Below, one piece after another: positions 1 through 57,728 of a stretch of DNA of 64,000 nt (the first letter of the stretch is position 1; every line of letters starts with the position of its first letter). The notes below the pieces were generated by a model. That model searched no databases, had not been told where the DNA came from, and saw only the letters and a program-made list of their open reading frames with translations. The stretch spans positions 106,022,001 through 106,086,000 of the forward strand of contig CM059431.1 in the NCBI GenBank assembly GCA_030390025.1. The letters are read 5' to 3'. The stretch is from Squalus acanthias. Lineage: Eukaryota. The position numbers and the translations under genes were made by a program.

Positions 1-1625
1 TGCAGACATTGTAGTTAAGGAGGAGGAGTGTGAAATATTAGTCGAGATAAACATAGTGAGAGAGGAAGCATTGAAGGGTTTAGCATCTTTGAAAGTAGAT
101 AAATCGCCAGGCCCGGATGAAATGGATCCCAGGCTGTTAAGAGAAGCAAGGGAGGAAATAGCGGAGGCTTTGACCATCATTTTTCAATCCTCTCTGGCTA
201 CAAGTGTGGTGCCGGAGGACTGGAGGACTGCTAGCGTTGTACCGTTGTTTAAAAAGGGAGAAAGGGAAAGACTGAGTAATTACAAGCAAGTCAGCTTATT
301 ATTGGAAAAAATTCTGAGGGACAGTATTAATCGTCATTTAGAAAGGCACGGATTAATCATGGACAGTCAGCAAGGATTTGTTGAGGGAAGGTCGTGTCTG
401 ATTAACTTGACTGAATTTTTTGAGGAGGTAACAAGGTCGACGAGGGTAGTGCGTTTGATGTAGTCTACATGGATTTTAGCAAATCTTTTGACAAGATCTC
501 ACATGGCAGACAGGTCAGAAAAGTAAAAGTGCATGTGATCTAAGGGAAAGTGGCAAGTTGGATCCAAAATTGGCTCAGTGGCAGGAAACAAAGGGTAATG
601 GTCGACGGGAGTTTGTGTGGCTGGAAGGCTGTTCCCCATTGGGTTCCCCAGGGCTCATTAAGAGGTCCCTTGCTTTTGTGGTATATATCAATGATTTAGA
701 CTTCAATGTAGGGGGCATGATTAGGAAGTTTGCAGAGGATACAAAAATTGGCCATGTGGTTGATGGTGAGGAAGATATCAATGGACTGGTCAGGTGGGCA
801 GAAAAGTGGCAAACGGAATTCAATCCAGAGAAGTGTGAGGTAATGCATTTGGGGAGGGCTAACAAGGCAAGAGAATACACAATAAATGTAGGATACTGAG
901 AAATGTAGAGGAACAGAGGGATCTCGGAGTGCATGTCCTCAGATCCTTGAAGGTAGCAGGACAAGTGGATCATGTGGTTAAGAAGGCATACGGGATATTT
1001 TACTTTATTAGCCGAGGCATAGAATATAAGAGCAGGGCAGTTATGCTAGAACTGTATAAAACACTAGTTAGACCACAGCTAGAGTACTGCGTACAGTTCT
1101 GGTCTCCACATTACAGGAAAGATGTGATTGCACTAGAGAGGGTACAGAGGAGATTTACGAGGATGTTGCCAGGACTGGAGAATTTTAGTTATGAGGAAAG
1201 ATTGGATAGGTTGGGGTTGTTTTCTTTGGAACAGAGGAGGCTGAGGGGAGTCTTAATTGAGGTGTCTAAAATTATGAGGGGCCTAGATAGAGTGGATAAG
1301 AAGGACCTATTTCCCCTAGCAGAGAGGTCAATAACCAGGGGGCATAGATTTAAAGTAATTGGTAGAATGATTAGAGGGGAGTTGAGGAGAACTTTTTTCA
1401 CCCGGGGGTGGTGGGGGTCTGGAACTCATTTGCTGAAAGGGTGGTAGAGGCAGAAAGCCTCATCACATTTAAAAAGTACTTGGATGTGCACTTGAAATGC
1501 CAGAACCTACAGGGCTACGGACCAAGAGCTAGAAAGTGGGATTAGGCTGGATAGCTCTTTGTCGGCCGGCACAGACACGATGGGCCGAATGGCCTCCTTC
1601 TGTGCCGTAAATCTCTATGATTCGA
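1..1625 (+). mobile_element. CR1-type LINE, ORF2 RT half plus 3' UTR, frameshifted, runs off the window start
   Basis: KSPGPD, VPEDWRTASVVPLFKKG, QQGFVEGRSCLINL, FAEDTK (degenerate FADD), FNPEKCEVMHLG, LYKTLVRPQLEYCVQFWSP; CR1 3' UTR gggccgaatggcctccttctgtgc. Confidence 0.95.
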
Positions 1626-8113: not shown

Positions 8114-8367
8114 TGAACTCACCGCTCACTACCAGACTCACGATTCTCCTGTTTATATATCTATTTATTTGTCTTGTCCTGGTCTCCTCAGGCCAAGCAC
8201 ATCCAATGATTTCAAAGAGATTACAACCACTGCTCCCACTTTTTCAGGCAGCAGGTGCTGGTAATGGTTATGCAATTCCCATTTACACCTCCTCTAGACC
8301 CATCTTCCGTTTATTTACCTGTCCCACTACCACCCCCTTTTGCTCCCATCATCATCCCTTTTGTCAT

Positions 8368-8885
8368 ATTATAAAAAGGATATAGAGGTGCTGGAGAGGG
8401 TGCAGAGAAGATTTACAAGGATGGTACCAGAAATGCGAAGGTATATCTATCAGGAAAGGGTGAACAGGCTGGGTCTCTTTTCTCTTGAAAAAAGAAGGCT
8501 GAGGGATGACCTAATAGAGGTCTTTAAAATTATGAAAGGTTTTGATAAAGTGGATAGAGAGAGAATGTTTCCACTTGTGGTGGAGCGCATAACTAAAGGC
8601 CATCAATATAAGATAGTCACCAAGAAATCCAATAGGGAATTCAGAAGAAACTTCTTTACCCAAAGAGTGGTGAGAATGTGGAACTCGCTACCACAGGGAG
8701 TGGTTGAAGCAAATAGTATGGATGCATTTAAGGGGAGGCTAGACAAACATATGAGGGAAAAGGGAATAGAGGGGATAGATTTAGATGAGGAAAGATGGGA
8801 GGAGGCTTGAGTGGAGCATTAACGTCAGCGTGGACTTGTTGGGCCAAATGGCCTATTTCTGTGCCGTATATCCTATGTAATCCTA
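8368..8885 (+). mobile_element. CR1 LINE 3' fragment nested in the PLE
   Basis: YKKDIEVLERVQRRFTRMVP...FFTQRVVRMWNSLP. Confidence 0.9.
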
Positions 8886-13095: not shown

Positions 13096-14044
13096 TTTCA
13101 ACTAACTGAGTAACTTCTAAAACAATTTACAGACTCATCTTAAATGATGGCATGGACTCTGTTTCAAAATGTTTGTTTGGCAAACCTGTTTTCATTTGTT
13201 GAAAACCGCACAACCTGATCATATAAATCGTGCCAAAACCATCGTGTTACTTGCGTGTGATGCAACTGTGCTGAAGCTGAAAATATTCTACCTCCCCAAA
13301 CAGACAGTAAAGGTTTGCCAAATGCTTTTCCGTGCAGCCCAATGAAAAGCAAAATCTCGACAACCTCTGCACTCTTGGGGGGGGGGGGGGGGGGGAGGGG
13401 AGGAGAGGGGGGGAGGGGAGGGGGGAGCGTTCTGCTTCATTGACAGGTTCTGAGAACATTGCACGTGGAGGAAGAATTATTCCATGCCTACTCATCTGTG
13501 CGGCAATATAATCCAAGTTCCTTGACATGAATTGAAGTCTGTAGCTGACAGATATCACAATGGTAGCTGTAAATGGCACGGGCCTGTCCTACAATATGTA
13601 TAGGAAATGAAAGCCCATAACATTGCAGTATGAGTCAATCAGTATGAGTCATTCAGTTTGACAACATCACAGTTTAAGGCACACCGTGCAACCAGAGATA
13701 TTTGTTTCTCAATATTTAACCACAACTTCTGTCTTTAAATGTACATAGCATCACCTCGAAATTTGAAAGTAATTTTTCGGCCACAACGGCGAGTGTGTTG
13801 AGGCCTATCTTCTTGATTCCGCAGACTGTACGTGCTGCCAGAGGGAGGTCAGGACCCCAAACATTCCACCGCAGTATAGGCCCCATGGTATAGATGCAAG
13901 CCCAAATCTGGTTCCAGAGCCCGTCCTGATACCGAAACAAAGCGAAGGAGTCTCATACCACTTCACTTTGGAGTCGGCTTTCACGCGTGAGTTACATTCA
14001 AGTGTCAGTGTGAAACCTTGGGGAGTGTGAACGCATTGTAACAG

Positions 14045-14258
14045 TGATGCGGAGATGCCGGTGTTGGACTGGGTGGACAACAGTGAGAAGTCGCACAACA
14101 CCAGGTTATAGTCCAACAGCTTTATTTGAAATCACAAGCTTTCGGAGCGCTGCTCCTTCGTCAGGTGAAGTCTTCACCTGACGAAGGAGCAGCGCTCCGA
14201 AAGCTTGTGATTTCAAATAAAGCTGTTGGACTATAACCTGGTGTTGTGCGACTTCTCA
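14045..14258. mobile_element. Palindromic PLE-derived element (family B) with two inverted hammerhead motifs
   Basis: Perfect 87-bp inverted arms (14084-14170 / 14172-14258) with a 1-nt centre, a ~39-nt unpaired tail, and a 12-bp TSD gcattgtaacag (14033-14044, 14259-14270). Confidence 0.85.
14174..14210 (+). ncRNA. Minimal type-I hammerhead ribozyme motif (mirror copy on the minus strand at 14132-14168)
   Basis: tcac-CTGACGA-a-ggagc-agc-gctcc-GAAA-g-CTT-gtga: stem I tcac/gtga, stem II ggagc/gctcc, palindromic AGCT stem III. Confidence 0.75.
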
Positions 14259-14340
14259 GCATTGTAACAGGTTTTGGTTTAGGATTAATCCACCAATGCA
14301 GCAACTGCACTAAGAACAGCATTTTCCAAACTTCCAGGCT

Positions 14341-14800
14341 GGAGTTGCCAACTCAGGTTGGACGTTTTCCTGGCTGTTTCATCACCTGACCTCTCCCCTC
14401 CACCCGTCCCTCCCAGTCAAACTAGTTCTGACTGGGAAAACTCGGAAAGAAACAAGGAAAAATACATGCTTAGTGTCCAGCGACAGGTTCTGAGAACATT
14501 GCGTGTGGAGGAAGAATTATTCCATGTCTCATCTGTGCGTGCAATATAATCCAAGTTCCTTGACATGAAGTGAGGTATAAAGGATGAACAAAAACCCCAT
14601 TTAATAATATTGGAGGGTTTTTTTCCACCTCCAATATTATTCAAACTAATAAACTAAAGTGTTCAAAGAAAATTAAAAAATTAAAACACTTTCTTAATGC
14701 CTCAATGACTTTTCTCCTGGGTTTTTCTCGCAGCAGTGTCTTGGAGACAAATCTTTAATTCTTGGAGATTCCTGGGCAATCTTGGCGGGTTGTCAAACCC
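14341..14800. mobile_element. Degenerate hAT (Blackjack-like) MITE
   Basis: Ends gttgccaac / gggttgtcaaaccc; internal similarity to the 41600-41872 copy. Confidence 0.5.
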
Positions 14801-33865: not shown

Positions 33866-34460
33866 ACTGCAATTATATAGGGCCCTGGTGAGACCACACC
33901 GGGAGTATTGTGTACAGTTTTGGTCTCCTTACTTAAGGAAGGATATACTTGCCATAGAGGGAGTGCAACAAAGGTTCACCAGACTGATTCCTGGGATGGG
34001 GGGATTGTCCTATGAGGACAGATTGAGTAGACTAGGCCTATATTCTCTAGAGCTGAGAAGAATGAGAGGTGATCTCATTGAAACATACAAAATTCTTACA
34101 GGGCTTGACAGGGTAGATGCAGGGAGGATGTTTCCCCTGGCTGGGGAATCTACAACCAGGCGTCACAGTCTCAGAATAAGGGGTTGGCCATTTAGGACTA
34201 AGATGAGGAGAAATTTCTTCACTCAGAGGGTGGTGAATCTTTGGAATTCTCTACCCCAGAGGGCTGTGGAGGCTCAGTCGTTGAGTATATTCAAGACAGT
34301 ACCGATAGATTTTTGGATATTAAGGGAATCAAGGGATATGGGGATAGTTCAGGAAAGTGGAGATGAGGTAGAAGATCAGCCATGATCTTATTGAATGGTG
34401 GAGCAGGCTCGAGGGGCTGAATGGTCTACTCCTACTCCTATTTCTTATGTTTTTATGTTT
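33866..34460 (+). mobile_element. CR1 LINE 3' fragment
   Basis: RPHREYCVQFWSPYLRKDI...FFTQRVVNLWNSLP plus UTR. Confidence 0.9.
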
Positions 34461-44964: not shown

Positions 44965-45753
44965 GGGCTGGATTTTATCAATGGAGACGTGCTGGAGGCG
45001 GGACTGCTGGTTTCCGGGTTTTAGTCCCGCCCCCAGTGACATCTGACCAACCCACTCTATTTTCCCTTGATTGGCCTTGTTAAGTCTGCCCTGTGGGCTT
45101 ACCGGCCAATTAAGGGAAAGCCGGTGACAGATGACGCCAGCGTATGACGCCTCATCTGTCGAAATTTTTTTGACAGATGAATTGTGAGCGCTTGACAGGC
45201 TCACCAAGACCCCTCTCCTCAGCAGAAATCAGATGGCTGCTGCATCTGAGAATGCAGCAGCCATTCTGTCATCTCTGCCGTTGAGATGAGGCACCTCCGG
45301 ATCCTCAAAGGTTGAAGCCTGCCGAAAGAAGCAAAGGTAAGGAAACTTTTTCCAATACGTTATGCTCACCTCTCATACTTACCTGTCCACACTTGCACCC
45401 ATCACTCACCTCTACAGCTGACATTTCGACCCCTCTCACCCCTGCAGACCCACTGCTCGCCTCGCTGACCCTGGCGAGGTTCACAGACGTCGGGAAGCCC
45501 GCATCAGCAGGCGTAAAATGGGGAAAAGCCTCTTAACTGCCTGTTAGTTACCTGTTAACAGGCAGTTAATTGGCTCTAATCCCCTTCCCGCCTCGAGGAG
45601 ATGGGTCCCTGCGCAAGTCGGGGACCCGCCTCCCAGAAAGATGGTTCGGAGGCGGGTTGGGAGCGGGGTTGGGGCCCGCTCCCAATTTTTCCCCCGTATT
45701 CCCAGCAGTCCCGCCTCCAAACCCGACTCCTCAGGGCTGGTAAAATCCAGCCC
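44965..45753. mobile_element. PIF/Harbinger-like MITE
   Basis: Perfect 13-bp TIR gggctggatttta / taaaatccagccc with 3-bp TSD TAC. Confidence 0.8.
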
Positions 45754-46244
45754 TACACTTCAGAAGACAAAAAGCTGAAGCATCTGAGACAAGCACACAG
45801 TACTAAATACTGGCAGCGGTACCGAAGATTTATTTTTTGATTACTGGTTTTAGATAAGCTTGTGCCAACGAGAGGGGCAAGTAAAAAAGGTAAAGGAAGC
45901 TGGAGGGATGTGGATGATTAAGGAAATAGAGATGTGGTGGACAGGCACAAGGTATTCGATACCATCGGCTGCCCAATTAGATTCAGTAATTCTATTACGA
46001 CTGAGAAAGAACATCACTCCACCATTGGCTGCCGTGGCTTCAGCTACAGGTTCACGTGATCTGCAAGAGTCAGAGGCAGAGTTTGTGTTCCCTCACTCGG
46101 TAAGTGTGGGATGAAATGGTCTTGTTTAACGTCAGTGCGCAACGCTTCAGGTCAGACAGTCCATTTAGTCTTTTCATTGCAACGGAGAGTGAAATCAATT
46201 CAAACAAATGCTGGGTGCCGTGAACCAGACAGAATGGCGAGGGA

Positions 46245-46455
46245 CACAAAAGCAAAATACTGCGGATGCTGGAAATCTGAAATAAAAAGAGAAAATGCTG
46301 GAAATACCCAGCAGGTCAGGCAGCACCCGTGGAGAGAGAAACAGAGTTTAACGTTTCAGGTCGATGACCCTTCATCTGACGAAGGGTCATCGACCTGAAA
46401 CGTTAACTCTGTTTCTCTCTCCACGGGTGCTGCCTGACCTGCTGGGTATTTCCAG
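46245..46455. mobile_element. Palindromic PLE family A element
   Basis: ~79-bp inverted arms (46298-46376 / 46378-46455) plus a left-hand tail; probable TSD cagaatggcgaggga (46230) / cagaatgaagaggga (46453); CTGACGA...GAAACGTT at 46376-46404. Confidence 0.8.
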
Positions 46456-49015
46456 AATGAAGAGGGAGTTATTTTGCACCAGCCAGACGTAGAATGTTGC
46501 TAAAACCCTTTCTATCGCTCTCCCACCTGCACCACCTTTTCTCTGAACATGGTGGGGGTAGATTTTTCGCTCTGGGTGCAATCGGGAAATTGCGTCCAAA
46601 ATGCGCTTGGAATTGTGCTGCTGCGGTTACGGGTTTCTGCTGTAATTCATCTGTCTAATCGCACACGAACAATCCTCCATGAACCAGCGCAATGGGGCAG
46701 AAGATAATTGTTTCTTTTTTTCGCTCTCGCCGTTTCAAAGTATTCCTCGATGTGTTTAAGAGCGGTAACCTGGTGCAGTTTTATTAATGCAGCTGAAAAT
46801 GGGTTTATCACCAAAAAATAAGCATTTTTAATCAGGGTGTCCAGTCCTCTGCCTGTGAGTAACTTGATTTAAAATCACTGAAAACTACTTAAAAAAACGA
46901 TACTGAACCATTTAATAGTTTAATTGGTGTACACTAGTCCGTTTCTTAGTAAATTAAACATGTTTTGATGTAAAAAGACATTTAAAATGTGTCGACTGGT
47001 GCCTGTGCCCCGAAGACAATGAGCGCGATTTGAAGAGCCTTCCCGAACCAGCTTGATCGACGGAATCTCGCAACGTCCACCTGGGGGGGGGGGGGGGGGG
47101 GGGCGCGGCCAGTTTTGTGGGCGGGGCCTGATCTGGGAGAATCGAATCTTGAACCAGCGTGAAAGATCGCGGGAAATGAGCGCGAGTGGTTTTGGGCGTA
47201 GCTCATTGACGTTTTAAAGTTCCCCGATCCTGCGCGCTAGTTCGGCCAATTCCGCCCACATTGCGCTGACATAACTGGTGGAAACAAACGGAAGCGCGAC
47301 CCTCTTTGGTTTGACAACCAATTTGGAGTCGTTCATCCAGCAAATAAACCACTGATGCCAGGCAAGAGTAGCCCAAATAAGGCAAGTTAAAAAAAAAAGA
47401 AATGGCACCCACGGCAAAAACAAAGAGCGTTGACTTTCGAAGAGTTAAAGGACACAATTAGTTTGCACCGATGAGCTGATTTACAGTTGGGTTGGACAAC
47501 AAATCTTAGCTTGTTTTTAAACGGGGAACAAACAAAAAAGGTTTGCCCAGTGGGCTGCTGAATAAAGCATCATTGTGGACAGCTGAGGAGGAGATTGTGT
47601 ACTTGATCTTTTTTCAGTACTGTCAGCGCCAGTCAGTACTATCACAGCTTCACGCTCTGCACATCACCAATGCTAAATATCACCATTCAGACACTTTTGC
47701 CTTGTCAGAATTGCAATTTAATTCCTGAGGAGCTCGCTGACTGACCTCTCAAAATCCCGAAGCCTTTGATCAAAACGCAAGTGAAATGCAATAAATGGGG
47801 GAACGAGATGGTAGCTAAGCATTAATTGGGGGATGACAACACAAAGTAGCAGAGAGAGTTAATCAATGCACCCAATTCTGCGCCATTATCCTAGAGGAAC
47901 TGCAAACACCATGACATAGAGGCAGCTTTCCCCACCTCAACAAATGCCCCCAAATAGACCACGCAAAGTCCTTCTCCATTTTTGCATGTTACTTAGGATG
48001 GGACGGTGGGGGGGGTGGGGGGGGGGGGGGGGGGAGGAGGAGGGGGGGGGGGTGGCGGTTGGGGGCGGGGGAATGATGATCACAAACTATCTCCTGTTCT
48101 TCGACATGGATACAAAACGACAGGCTTCAGTTCGAGGCTTTCTGAAGCTGTCATTTCTAAAGTAGCCATTTCTGCTCCAGAACAAAGGACACTTTGCCAT
48201 CCTTCGAAATGATGCTAATCTTTCGGGACATGCCTTTTCAAAAAAAAAGATGAAATCACCATCGGAGTAGAGCACTGTTCACCCTCCACAGAGAAAATGA
48301 CCTCGGAATGGGAATCTTATCAAGACAAACAGATCTTTTGTGCATTCAGTATTACATTTAAAGCAAAAAGAAGGCAATTTGAGGTCTTGCTTGACAGCGC
48401 TGAACGCACTGCTGTTGATCCCATGCTGTGTGAGTGGCTGAAAATTACTGAATGTGGATAAACTAATAGTGCAGAGGTTACAAATGGACCCTTGCACCCG
48501 TTCCATGTAGCTTAGTCGCAGAACCGATCTACCTGTCATAACAATGCTTTGCACACAAAGATAAACACTTGTTGAAAGCACTTCACTCCTTAGGGGACAT
48601 ACTTAGCATCGTCAGGGCATGAGACAAGGCTATCGGTATGGTAACCACCATAGCCCCCCCCCCCCCCCGCCAATATTTAAATGCTATGGAGTTTATTATT
48701 CCCACTAGAGCTCACTGCCCAACAAATGAAGCCATTATCCACCATTTTACGCTGATCCAATCTGTCGATATTGTAAATGCAAAAAAAATCTTCACAGTAA
48801 GTGCAGTTAATCAGGAAATGTTCAGACAGAGGAGCACAGGCAACCGAGATTGGGATTCCATAAAGGACTTGTCTGAATACACCATGGGTTTTTTAATGCT
48901 ATGCTAGCCAACCACAGTGGTGATATTGTTCTGGTCCTTATGTAATTGGCAGATTTCCTGAATCTATGCAAGCTTTATTGCAAGTTCCACTACTTAGTCA
49001 AACGTGAAGCCTATT

Positions 49016-50222: not shown

Positions 50223-50377
50223 ATACCCACGTTTAATTTTACCGATGGTTACAGGTATAGGACCAGCTTATGCTTTAGTCTGTTTGTGTTAGCCACAGAG
50301 GCAGAGCAAAGGAACTCTGGTTCATGACCATATGCTCTGGCTCTGATAGTTACGTTTTAAGTGTACAGCTTAATTCA

Positions 50378-50920
50378 AGAATCATAGAAATTTACGGCAC
50401 AGAAGGAGGCCATTCGGCCCATCGTGTCTGCACCGGTCGAAAAAGAGCTATCCACCCTAATCCCACTTCCCAGCTCTTGGTAGCCTTGCAGGTTACAGCT
50501 CTTCAAGTGCATATGCACATACTTTATAAATGTGATCAGGGTTTCTGCCTCTACCACCCTTTCAGGCAGTGAGTTCCAGACCCCCACCACCCTCTGGGTG
50601 AAAAAAGTTCTTCTCAACTCCCCTCTAAACCTTCTACCAATTACTTTAAATCTATGCCCCCTGGTTATTGACCTCTCTGCTAAGGGAAATAGGTCTTTCC
50701 TATCCACTCTATCTAGGCCCCTCATAATTTTATACACCTCAGTTAGGTCTCCCCTCAGCCTCCTCTGTTTCAAAGAAAACAACCTCAGCCTCTCCAATCT
50801 TTCCTCATAGCTAAAATTCTCCAGTCCTGGCAACATCCTCGCAAATCTCCTCTGTACCCTCTCTAGTGCAATCACATCTTTCCTGTAATGTGGTGACCAG
50901 AACTGTGCGCAGCACTCTAA
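50378..50920 (-). mobile_element. CR1 LINE 3' fragment
   Basis: ALERVQRRFARMLPGL...FFTQRVVGVWNSLP. Confidence 0.9.
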
Positions 50921-51035
50921 CCTTCAGTAGAGGAAAAAATAATTTTCCTTTAAAAACATAATTATATTGCCCCATTGCATCAAAGCATAATTAAGCAGCA
51001 GTAGGAGATACAAGCTTAAGTGTTCATTGTACATC

Positions 51036-56610: not shown

Positions 56611-57256
56611 TGGTAGTCCATTCTATTCTGGTCTTTGCGGTTCTGCCAGTCAGTACTGGCATTTGTAAGGCTGTGTTTGAGCACTCGAAGCTTCCCAAGT
56701 CTAATTAAACAACACTGGCTTTACTGGCAGGTTTGAGAGCATCATACTTTCATCGATACAGAGAGATTAAAAATCCATATAACAACCTTAAGCGTAGGGG
56801 AATGTCAGCCAGTAACATTTCACTTCAAACTGAATATTGATTTGTGCTCACAGTATTGTTTAATAAGGCTTAATTCGAGCAGCTGAGCCAATGAGGCTGC
56901 TGCTATAATTATGAACACGAATACAGTGGCCAGTATTATACAGTGTCCGTGGCTCTTTCTGCAATGTATTGCGGAATTTGCATAGCACTTGTCGATGCTG
57001 AGTGATGGAAGCAATTTGGGGTCAGTATCAATTGAGAAGGCTAAAGTAGAAAAAGACATGCTGTAAATGCAAGCACAAACTCGGGATGGGAGCGTAACCA
57101 CCATTTAAAGGGGAAGGGATAATTAAAGGGGAGTGTCAGACTAGTTAGAGGAGCGACAACCTGTTGGAGGCAGATACTTCCTGGTCCACGCCCTGAAACC
57201 TACGCCATGACACGAAGTGGAACACCCGCCCATTCTCCACTACCTGATTTACAGTG

Positions 57257-57581
57257 GTCATGATGCGGCGATGCCGGTGTTGGACTGGGGTGGACAAAAA
57301 TTAGAAGTCGCACAACACCAGGTTATAGTCCAACAGTTTTATTTAAAATTACGAGCTTTCGGAGCGCTGCTCCTTCGTCAGGTAAAGGTACAGTGAGGGA
57401 ATCGATTACACAGTATATATACACAGTATATCTCTGCAGACAAATTGTTCTCTGTGTATATATACTGTGTAATAGATTCCCTCACTGTACCTTTACCTGA
57501 AGAAGGAGCAGCGCTCCGAAAGCTCGTAATTTTAAATAAAACTGTTGGACTATAACCTGGTGTTGTGCGACTTCTCATTTT
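57257..57581. mobile_element. Palindromic PLE family B element with two inverted hammerhead motifs
   Basis: ~132-bp arms (57295-57426 / 57452-57583, about 3 mismatches), 25-nt spacer, 12-bp TSD tgatttacagtg (57245-57256, 57582-57593). Confidence 0.85.
57349..57385 (-). ncRNA. Minimal type-I hammerhead ribozyme motif (mirror copy on the plus strand at 57493-57529)
   Basis: ttac-CTGACGA-a-ggagc-agc-gctcc-GAAA-g-CTC-gtaa; stem I ttac/gtaa covaries with tcac/gtga of the 14-kb copy. Confidence 0.75.
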
Positions 57582-57728
57582 TGATTTACAGTGTTACAAT
57601 GGGGAACTGCCAGTGGAAAATATAGAATGGTATCTCATCACAGTATGACCTAGAGACCTTACCTGGCTTTTCAATGATTACTTCACTTCCAGAAATAAAT
57701 ATAAATATAGATATATGTGTATGTAATG

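What the first reader, a model, noticed from the sequence alone, without database searches (positions are those of the whole stretch)
14033..14270. Perfect 175-nt fold-back element carrying a hammerhead ribozyme motif on each strand
Seen: perfect 87-bp arms around a single base (14171), an unpaired ~39-nt tail and a 12-bp TSD. Each arm reads tcac-CTGACGA-a-ggagc(agc)gctcc-GAAA-g-CTT-gtga, a complete hammerhead core with a loopless palindromic stem III (AGCT). Established: minimal hammerheads that cleave as dimers occur in Penelope-like pseudo-LTRs, and PLE insertions can leave inverted termini with a short tail. Inference: this is a young, non-coding ~214-bp PLE derivative. On either strand the antisense arm is transcribed before the ribozyme, so in PCDH9 pre-mRNA the hammerhead would be locked in an 87-bp duplex, a possible ADAR/Dicer substrate. 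That could make such insertions tolerated in genes or supply small RNAs against the parent element.
Basis: partly seen in the sequence, partly recalled or inferred. Interest (0 to 1): 0.8.

Follow-up and report, generated by a model that had tools for sequence, protein, structure and literature searches.

The report
Shark Penelope retroelement leader palindrome
This perfect DNA palindrome in a shark gene's intron is one of tens of thousands of short insertions of a Penelope-type jumping gene; the layout is known, but the copies' ends suggest it likely forms when both sides of the DNA cut copy the same short front end of the element's RNA.

Summary
Observation confirmed: 87-bp perfect arms, one centre base, 39-nt tail, 12-bp target duplication, and a minimal hammerhead with covarying stems. 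It is a truncated, inverted insertion of a high-copy Penelope-like element (PLE). The parent has an intact 892-aa RT plus GIY-YIG-type ORF, and the tail ends at its ATG. The inverted-plus-tail layout is published, and this scan has noted it in other genomes (72 notes, at least 10 genomes). What the counts add: 112 of 119 inverted copies not picked by their tail pair one tailed with one tail-less arm. The arms share subfamily alleles. Inner ends pile up at an initiator-like A about 30 nt behind a TATA-like box (804 copies against 35 five bases upstream), and a G precedes that A in 87 of 100. The palindrome's centre base is that A. Best reading: both nicked target strands prime cDNA on the capped RNA leader, run off its 5' end and are joined, giving a dead-end stub rather than a self-spreading family. 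No sharp pile-up appears at the ribozyme cut site. The small-RNA/ADAR role is untested.

The parts
14033..14044 (.). Target-site duplication, left copy (12 bp)
   Evidence: 12-13 bp in 115 of 175 pairs
14045..14083 (-). 39-nt tail: leader positions 88-126, ending inside the parent's ATG; inferred first RT start site
14084..14170 (-). Tailed arm, leader positions 1-87, sense on the minus strand
14132..14168 (-). Minimal type I hammerhead of the tailed arm (stem I TCAC/GTGA, core CTGACGA, extra A, 5-bp stem II, GAAA, palindromic AGCT); predicted cut between 14136 and 14135
14171..14171 (-). Centre base: the A of the initiator-like motif (leader position 0), inferred transcription start; preceded on the minus strand by G
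14172..14258 (+). Tail-less inverted arm, leader positions 1-87; its outer end is the inferred second RT start site
14174..14210 (+). Hammerhead of the tail-less arm; predicted cut 3' of 14206
14259..14270 (.). Target-site duplication, right copy
57245..57593 (.). Second insertion of the same family in the window: other subfamily, arms reaching past the TATA-like box, 12-bp duplication

Best explanation
The palindrome is a truncated, inverted insertion of an abundant Penelope-like retrotransposon, likely made when each of the two nicked target strands primed its own cDNA on the short 5' leader of the element's RNA and the two cDNAs were then joined at the RNA's 5' end. Shown: the sequence is the element's pLTR from the initiator-like A to the ATG, duplicated head to head with one tailed and one tail-less end, inside a 12-bp duplication. 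Inferred: (1) a TATA/initiator promoter in the pLTR starts a capped RNA 7 nt before the hammerhead core; (2) the protein cuts both strands 12-13 nt apart; (3) one 3'-OH starts at about +128 (the ATG) and the other at about +87, in fixed pairing; (4) both copy through the uncut ribozyme and run off the cap, often adding a base that reads as an extra G; (5) the ends are joined by 0-4 nt microhomology or short templated patches. The product lacks the TATA box and the ORF, so it would be a dead end. In the host pre-mRNA it would fold as a duplex of about 85 bp with the ribozyme unformed.
For: Parent: 892-aa intact ORF from the ATG at the tail end, flanked by this pLTR (L151); RT PF00078; DKG, YIDD, C-x4-C-x2-C and VVY..WYIG read in the sequence; relatives at 80-94% in shark-annotated proteins and about 45% in turtles, many with PF01541. 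The window's own hammerhead variant is linked to the endonuclease end in L116, L117 and L153. Abundance: 12,865 exact 40-mers, 32,980 exact tail 31-mers, 4,662 ORF 24-mers. Pairing: 168 of 175 inverted pairs are tailed plus tail-less; 112 of 119 among loci not picked by the tail, p 9e-26 against 50%. On inspection the 7 exceptions are 3 tailed arms with deletions, 2 unrelated neighbours, 1 true tailed/tailed and 1 true short/short. Two cDNAs: in 24 of 56 pairs the tail-less arm reaches more than 5 nt further 5' than the tailed arm, so it cannot be a fold-back copy of it. Same source: in 105 pairs the arms disagree at six subfamily sites 1-9.5% of the time, against 10-57% if random. Both arms tend to stop within the leader or both pass upstream (16/2/4/37, p 6e-9). 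5' end: a TATA-like box with an initiator-like A 27-35 nt behind it in 41 of 43 reference pLTRs; 58 of 127 arm ends at positions 0-17 against 15 at -30 to -1; genome-wide 804 arms start at A0 against 35 at -5 with the same filter. In a subfamily whose initiator lies at -6, ends reach -6 (11 of 100 listed) and thin out beyond (4 at -7, 2 at -8; hand count). G precedes A0 in 87 of 100, against 16 of 35 at -5 and 15 of 100 at position 36 (hand counts; tests). Untemplated G is taken as a cap sign for LINE-1 and SVA (PMC4859970). An Anolis PLE nicks and extends both strands from two internal start sites that bound the tail, is predicted to be a dimer, and uses uncut RNA (PMC11167929).
Against: No transcription start was mapped; the initiator motif is weak, the region is pyrimidine-rich, and I chose between candidate A's. 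The extra G in inverted copies can also be read as the partner arm's last base. In copies without a partner it is only 11 G against 6 A (hand count), which is not decisive alone. Ends are spread over 0-17, not only at 0 (16 of 127 at 0-1), so trimming must be assumed. In the -6 subfamily 44 of 100 junctions sit on a GTAC palindrome, and the filter could not see ends beyond -8. In vitro the Anolis enzyme showed no start-site difference between strands, so the fixed pairing is not explained by it. The 2x2 table omits 18 tailed arms that reach upstream and have no partner within 1.5 kb. Allele sharing could also come from same-epoch source elements or from conversion between arms. One RNA or two RNAs of one locus cannot be told apart. 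Most sampled loci come from one contig.
Confidence: 0.62

Rival explanations
1. One cDNA snaps back on itself (or an antisense RNA self-primes, as proposed for rotifer PLEs) and is copied back to form the inverted arm.
For: PMC3846280 reads head-to-head palindromes as self-priming on an antisense template (passages). Partner-less copies often carry CAG or TCAG between the duplication and A0, the mark expected of a short snap-back onto the core (L285, L286, L312). The CAG|A junction is very common. This copy alone (tailed arm to 0, short arm to 1) fits.
Against: In 24 of 56 pairs the short arm holds sequence missing from the tailed arm, and the tailed arm always holds a tail missing from the short arm. 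Short-arm outer ends often overlap a T-run as expected for target priming. Tail-less copies also occur alone with duplications.
Confidence: 0.15
2. Ends pile up near position 0-17 because RT stalls in the hammerhead fold or because the self-complementary stems favour joining there, not because the RNA starts there.
For: Many junctions use microhomologies of the stems (GAAG, GTGA, AAGCTT, GTAC); ends spread over the whole 5' half of the ribozyme.
Against: A 23-fold drop between position 0 and -5; the edge moves with the initiator in another subfamily; position 0 lies outside the predicted fold; G excess only at that position.
Confidence: 0.13
3. The 214-bp palindrome is a non-autonomous element or retrozyme that spreads as such and serves as a small-RNA or editing substrate.
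For: The same centre occurs in 11 of 60 loci that start at A0. Non-autonomous PLE derivatives are described (PMC8557442; bioRxiv 10.64898/2026.07.22.740005). The RNA would be a long duplex.
Against: Centres and arm lengths form a continuum. No TATA box or ORF in the copy. The ribozyme cannot fold in the duplex. The layout is not a tandem array. No RNA evidence: the one putative RNA run laid showed no cover of the unique flanks.
Confidence: 0.07
4. The inner ends mark ribozyme cleavage of the template RNA.
For: Arms starting exactly at the cut (position 36) number 246, against 56 at position 44 and 153 at position 28, under filters of different strictness; 28 of 30 inspected are true junctions; no G excess there.
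Against: This copy and most others contain the whole ribozyme. Among 100 listed arms ending at 30-42, counts are flat over 30-39 and close to a uniform expectation (8 at 36 against 6.0; hand count). Only 4 of 127 arms end at 35-38. 7 of the 30 use a GTGA microhomology. Four of 35 variants with a changed core (CCGACGA) also spread.
Confidence: 0.03

Closest known systems
Inverted-pLTR plus tail insertions of endonuclease-bearing PLEs (Adineta vaga Pen2a_Av, PMC3846280; PMC8557442 Fig. 2 legend; D. virilis Penelope, PMC2377424)
   Same: Head-to-head inverted pLTR, 30-40 nt tail on one side, target duplication, partial tandems, TATA plus TCACT-like initiator in the pLTR.
   Different: Here both halves are only the leader. 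Pairing of tailed and tail-less ends is counted (112 of 119), and inner ends are tied to the initiator A with an extra G. The rotifer paper proposes antisense self-priming.
PAc (Poseidon of Anolis carolinensis), PMC11167929
   Same: Two internal RT start sites bounding the tail, both strands extended, hammerhead at the pLTR/ORF junction, uncut RNA as main template.
   Different: There the start sites lie inside the ORF and the ribozyme overlaps the ATG; here the sites are about -40 and +1 of the ATG. This protein has the linker Zn-finger-like motif that Poseidon lacks. No strand preference was seen in vitro.
Minimal hammerheads of metazoan PLEs, PMC4209133
   Same: 4-bp stem I, extra base between 9 and 10.1, G10.1-C11.1, palindromic 15.2-16.2, no loop 3; opposite-strand pairs 100-700 bp apart were noted.
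   Different: Stem II is 5 bp; no cleavage assay exists for this variant.
LINE-1 twin priming and cap-derived G (review PMC4859970)
   Same: Second target strand primes a second cDNA, giving an inversion; extra G at complete 5' ends.
   Different: In L1 the two cDNAs cover different parts of the RNA (recalled); here both cover the same leader and start at fixed internal sites.
Non-LTR retrozymes (bioRxiv 10.64898/2026.07.22.740005)
   Same: PLE-related, type I hammerhead, non-coding.
   Different: Retrozymes are head-to-tail tandems; this is a head-to-head single insertion.

Membership tests
EN+ Penelope-like element | Single ORF with RT and C-terminal GIY-YIG endonuclease attached to this pLTR | tested here: met
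   892-aa ORF, PF00078. The GIY-YIG core was read by eye; Pfam gave no PF01541 hit on the query itself, but many homologs carry it.
EN+ Penelope-like element | Partial tandems forming pLTRs and inverted 5'-truncated copies | tested here: met
   L151, L152 tandem; L153-L159 inverted
EN+ Penelope-like element | 30-40 nt tail at one end and a target duplication | tested here: met
Neptune/Nematis clades | CX2-5CxxC motif between RT and EN | tested here: met
   CHGNLCKTC; definition from PMC8557442 passages
Neptune clade | RT phylogenetic placement | not tested
   no tree was built
Minimal type I hammerhead of PLEs | Core, stems I and II with covariation, extra base after A9, palindromic stem III | tested here: met
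Minimal type I hammerhead of PLEs | Self-cleavage as a dimer or with protein help | not testable with these tools
   The computed active dimer (-20.7) is less stable than an inactive one (-30.5); the genomic footprint is inconclusive.
Non-LTR retrozyme | Two or more head-to-tail ribozyme units | tested here: not met
   head-to-head single insertion
MITE / DNA transposon | Terminal inverted repeats directly inside the duplication at both ends, uniform length | tested here: not met
   one-sided tail, variable lengths, RT parent

The most novel reading that the evidence does not exclude
The shark genome holds a base-resolved record of the PLE insertion reaction: a staggered 12-13 nt cut, two target-primed cDNAs with an obligatory split of start sites (one at the ATG, one about 40 nt upstream), copied from one capped RNA through an uncut hammerhead and joined at the cap. 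Because the start sites lie in the mRNA's own 5' leader, unit-length transcripts yield only promoterless palindromic stubs. Full copies would need read-through into a second pLTR and ORF start, which would explain both the inversions and the known need for tandems.
Probability: 0.45. Interest if true: 0.66.

Novelty: new member of a known kind. Interest (0 to 1): 0.4.

Why it matters
The single copy is ordinary. The family matters because how PLEs make their tandem and inverted ends is stated to be unresolved (PMC8557442, passages), and here tens of thousands of insertions and intact ORFs give sharp predictions: cut stagger, fixed pairing of start sites, RNA 5' end, cap copying and no need for ribozyme cleavage. 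These can be tested in the existing in vitro system. Such stubs are also easily mis-annotated as MITEs or microRNA hairpins.

Tried and rejected
DNA search of the genome with the arm returned nothing because common words are skipped; patterns were used instead. Rfam gave no hammerhead match. Pfam gave nothing on the endonuclease fragment. A ribozyme-cut footprint looked promising in the first 30 loci and but did not hold as a sharp peak. Both arms ending near 36 (4-5 of the inverted loci) is not specific: similar symmetry appears at the control positions 44 and 28. An apparent second upstream ribozyme in the 3' region has a broken core and was not pursued. Read data were contigs only, so starts, ends, editing and small RNAs could not be seen. 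An empty site was sought: the second sample's left-flank contig stops at 14001, and one other organism's contig follows the left flank to 14010 and then continues with sequence unlike the tail. That is at most a weak hint of an empty site and is not used as evidence. The last protocadherin exon was not in the first 200 kb and was found in the next 200 kb. Look-up of earlier notes by sequence was empty. Paper search found nothing.

Full report
Observation. The element is as described: a 12-bp duplication, a 39-nt tail, two perfectly complementary 87-nt arms and one centre base. On the minus strand it reads: inverted arm (positions 87 to 1), A (position 0), then positions 1 to 126. Read-derived single-copy contigs cross both outer junctions; none listed spans the centre. 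It lies in the last intron of a minus-strand delta-protocadherin; the name PCDH9 is recalled.

Family and parent. The 3.7-Gb genome has 12,865 exact matches to a 40-mer of the arm and 32,980 to a 31-mer of the tail. Sixteen arms in 464 contiguous kb extrapolate to about 128,000 arms, a rough figure from one region. Longer copies lead into an endonuclease-coding end. A pattern from it has 4,662 matches. Of 10 regions chosen for close pairs of matches, one holds an intact 892-aa ORF between two pLTRs and a second holds the same full reading frame in an inverted structure. The protein has PF00078, DKG, YIDD, a C-x4-C-x2-C linker and a VVY..WYIG core; Pfam did not call the GIY-YIG on the query. 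The closest of 1,722 homologs are shark-annotated. The intact copies belong to a sister subfamily (about 90% identical unit). The two regions with the window's own pLTR type and long ORF parts that I looked at are frameshifted or truncated (L153, L116/L117). The tail ends at the ORF's ATG: tailed ends fall at 125-131 in 157 of 172 arms (target bases add chance matches).

Hammerhead. Core and stems are kept while loop II and the upstream sequence vary. Covariation is seen in stem I. This matches the minimal hammerheads of PMC4209133 (parts 1-2 of 4 read), which cleave weakly and only as dimers, and for which opposite-strand pairs were already noted. Four of 35 variants have a changed core. In the palindrome the ribozyme cannot form.

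How the inversion forms. Of 175 inverted pairs, 168 join one tailed and one tail-less arm; 112 of 119 among loci not selected by the tail. Inspection leaves one true tailed/tailed and one true short/short case. Duplications are 12-13 bp in 115 of 175. The short arm often contains sequence absent from the tailed arm (24 of 56 pairs; 15 the reverse; 17 within 5 nt), which argues for two cDNAs. The arms share subfamily alleles (20 of 105 pairs differ at any of six sites, 82% expected at random), and both tend to stop in the leader or both pass upstream (with 18 unpaired upstream arms left out). PMC11167929 (parts 1-2 of 4 read) supplies the biochemistry: both strands are nicked and extended, two internal start sites bound the tail, and uncut RNA is used. 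It saw no start-site difference between strands and no RNA reads ending at the cut.

Why the arms stop where they do. In 41 of 43 reference pLTRs a TATA-like box lies 27-35 nt before an initiator-like A, at position 0 or -6 by subfamily; a similar motif pair was described in a rotifer pLTR (PMC3846280, passages). In loci not selected for the ribozyme, 58 of 127 arms end at 0-17, 15 at -30 to -1, 16 at 18-60 and 38 further upstream. Genome-wide, 804 arms begin exactly at A0 and 35 at -5. In a -6 subfamily the 100 listed ends were 2, 4, 11, 9, 9, 44, 4, 7, 10 for positions -8 to 0 (hand count); the 44 sit on a GTAC palindrome. The base before A0 is G in 87 of 100, against 16 of 35 and 15 of 100 at control positions (hand counts), which fits copying of the cap as accepted for LINE-1 and SVA (PMC4859970, passages). 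Against this, the G can belong to the partner arm, and partner-less copies give only 11 G to 6 A. The window's element is the cleanest case: tailed arm to A0, short arm to 1, the G shared. The same junction occurs in 11 of 60 such loci. Short CAG or TCAG patches in partner-less copies show that some snap-back also happens.

Ribozyme cut. Counts at 36, 44 and 28 were 246, 56 and 153, but the finer listing is flat over 30-39 with a drop at 40 (3 of 100 rows dropped as small indels; one microhomology class is excluded by the filter). A cut footprint is not shown; at most a few per cent of arms could come from cut RNA.

Comparison and novelty. The layout is published (PMC8557442 passages; PMC3846280; PMC2377424 passages, which also notes the need for partial tandems). 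Retrozymes are tandem arrays (bioRxiv 10.64898/2026.07.22.740005, parts 1-2 of 5 and passages). Searches showed no paper that ties PLE inversion junctions to the transcription start or cap, or that counts the pairing of ends. I saw most hits only as listings, the library lacks most subscription journals, including older PLE reviews, and no supplements were read, so this may be in print. Earlier notes of this scan report the same kind of element in other genomes, two with the twin-priming or start-site idea. My reading was noted before that look-up, and those notes are not independent support.

Verdict. A real, ordinary insertion of a known kind, in a family that offers a good test of an open mechanism. 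Class assignment about 0.97; two-ended priming with run-off at the RNA start about 0.62; interest 0.4.

Noticed in passing
window 46232-46466: A second hammerhead family (stem III ACGT, stem I AGTT/AACT in other copies) with the same layout: tail, inverted arms joined at the ribozyme's 5' side, and an imperfect 12-bp duplication.
   Followed up: partly
window 57245-57593: Second copy of the same family with the compensatory stem I pair (TTAC/GTAA); both arms pass the TATA-like box (to -38 and -61).
   Followed up: yes
window 13442-13538 and 14482-14576: An imperfect direct repeat of about 95 bp, 1,040 bp apart, brackets the unique segment that holds the insertion; origin unexplained.
   Followed up: no
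L029 1100-1270; L030, L047, L079, L087, L118: Just after the ORF stop, some subfamilies carry a hammerhead-like remnant with a broken core that resembles the second family; in L029 the inversion starts from that region with its own one-sided end, hinting at a relic pLTR still used for initiation.
   Followed up: no
L049, L071, L085, L144 and short copies L075, L077, L086, L102: Subfamilies with CCGACGA in place of the CTGA core have multiple copies, suggesting spread with an impaired ribozyme.
   Followed up: partly
L007, L035, L173, L192, L309, L310: Short templated repeats at the inner junctions, as expected of polymerase-theta-type end joining (recalled).
   Followed up: no
P0019: A shark epn2 isoform model includes about 260 residues of this element's protein at 94% identity: an exonised or mis-annotated insertion.
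   Followed up: no
window 14600-14644 and 45533-45569: Shorter inverted repeats (17 and 14 bp arms) not related to this family.
   Followed up: no
window 575-1447, 8298-8810, 33867-34385, 50375-50923: Fragments of CR1/L2-type LINE reading frames (type recalled); many of the PLE copies examined sit inside such LINEs.
   Followed up: no
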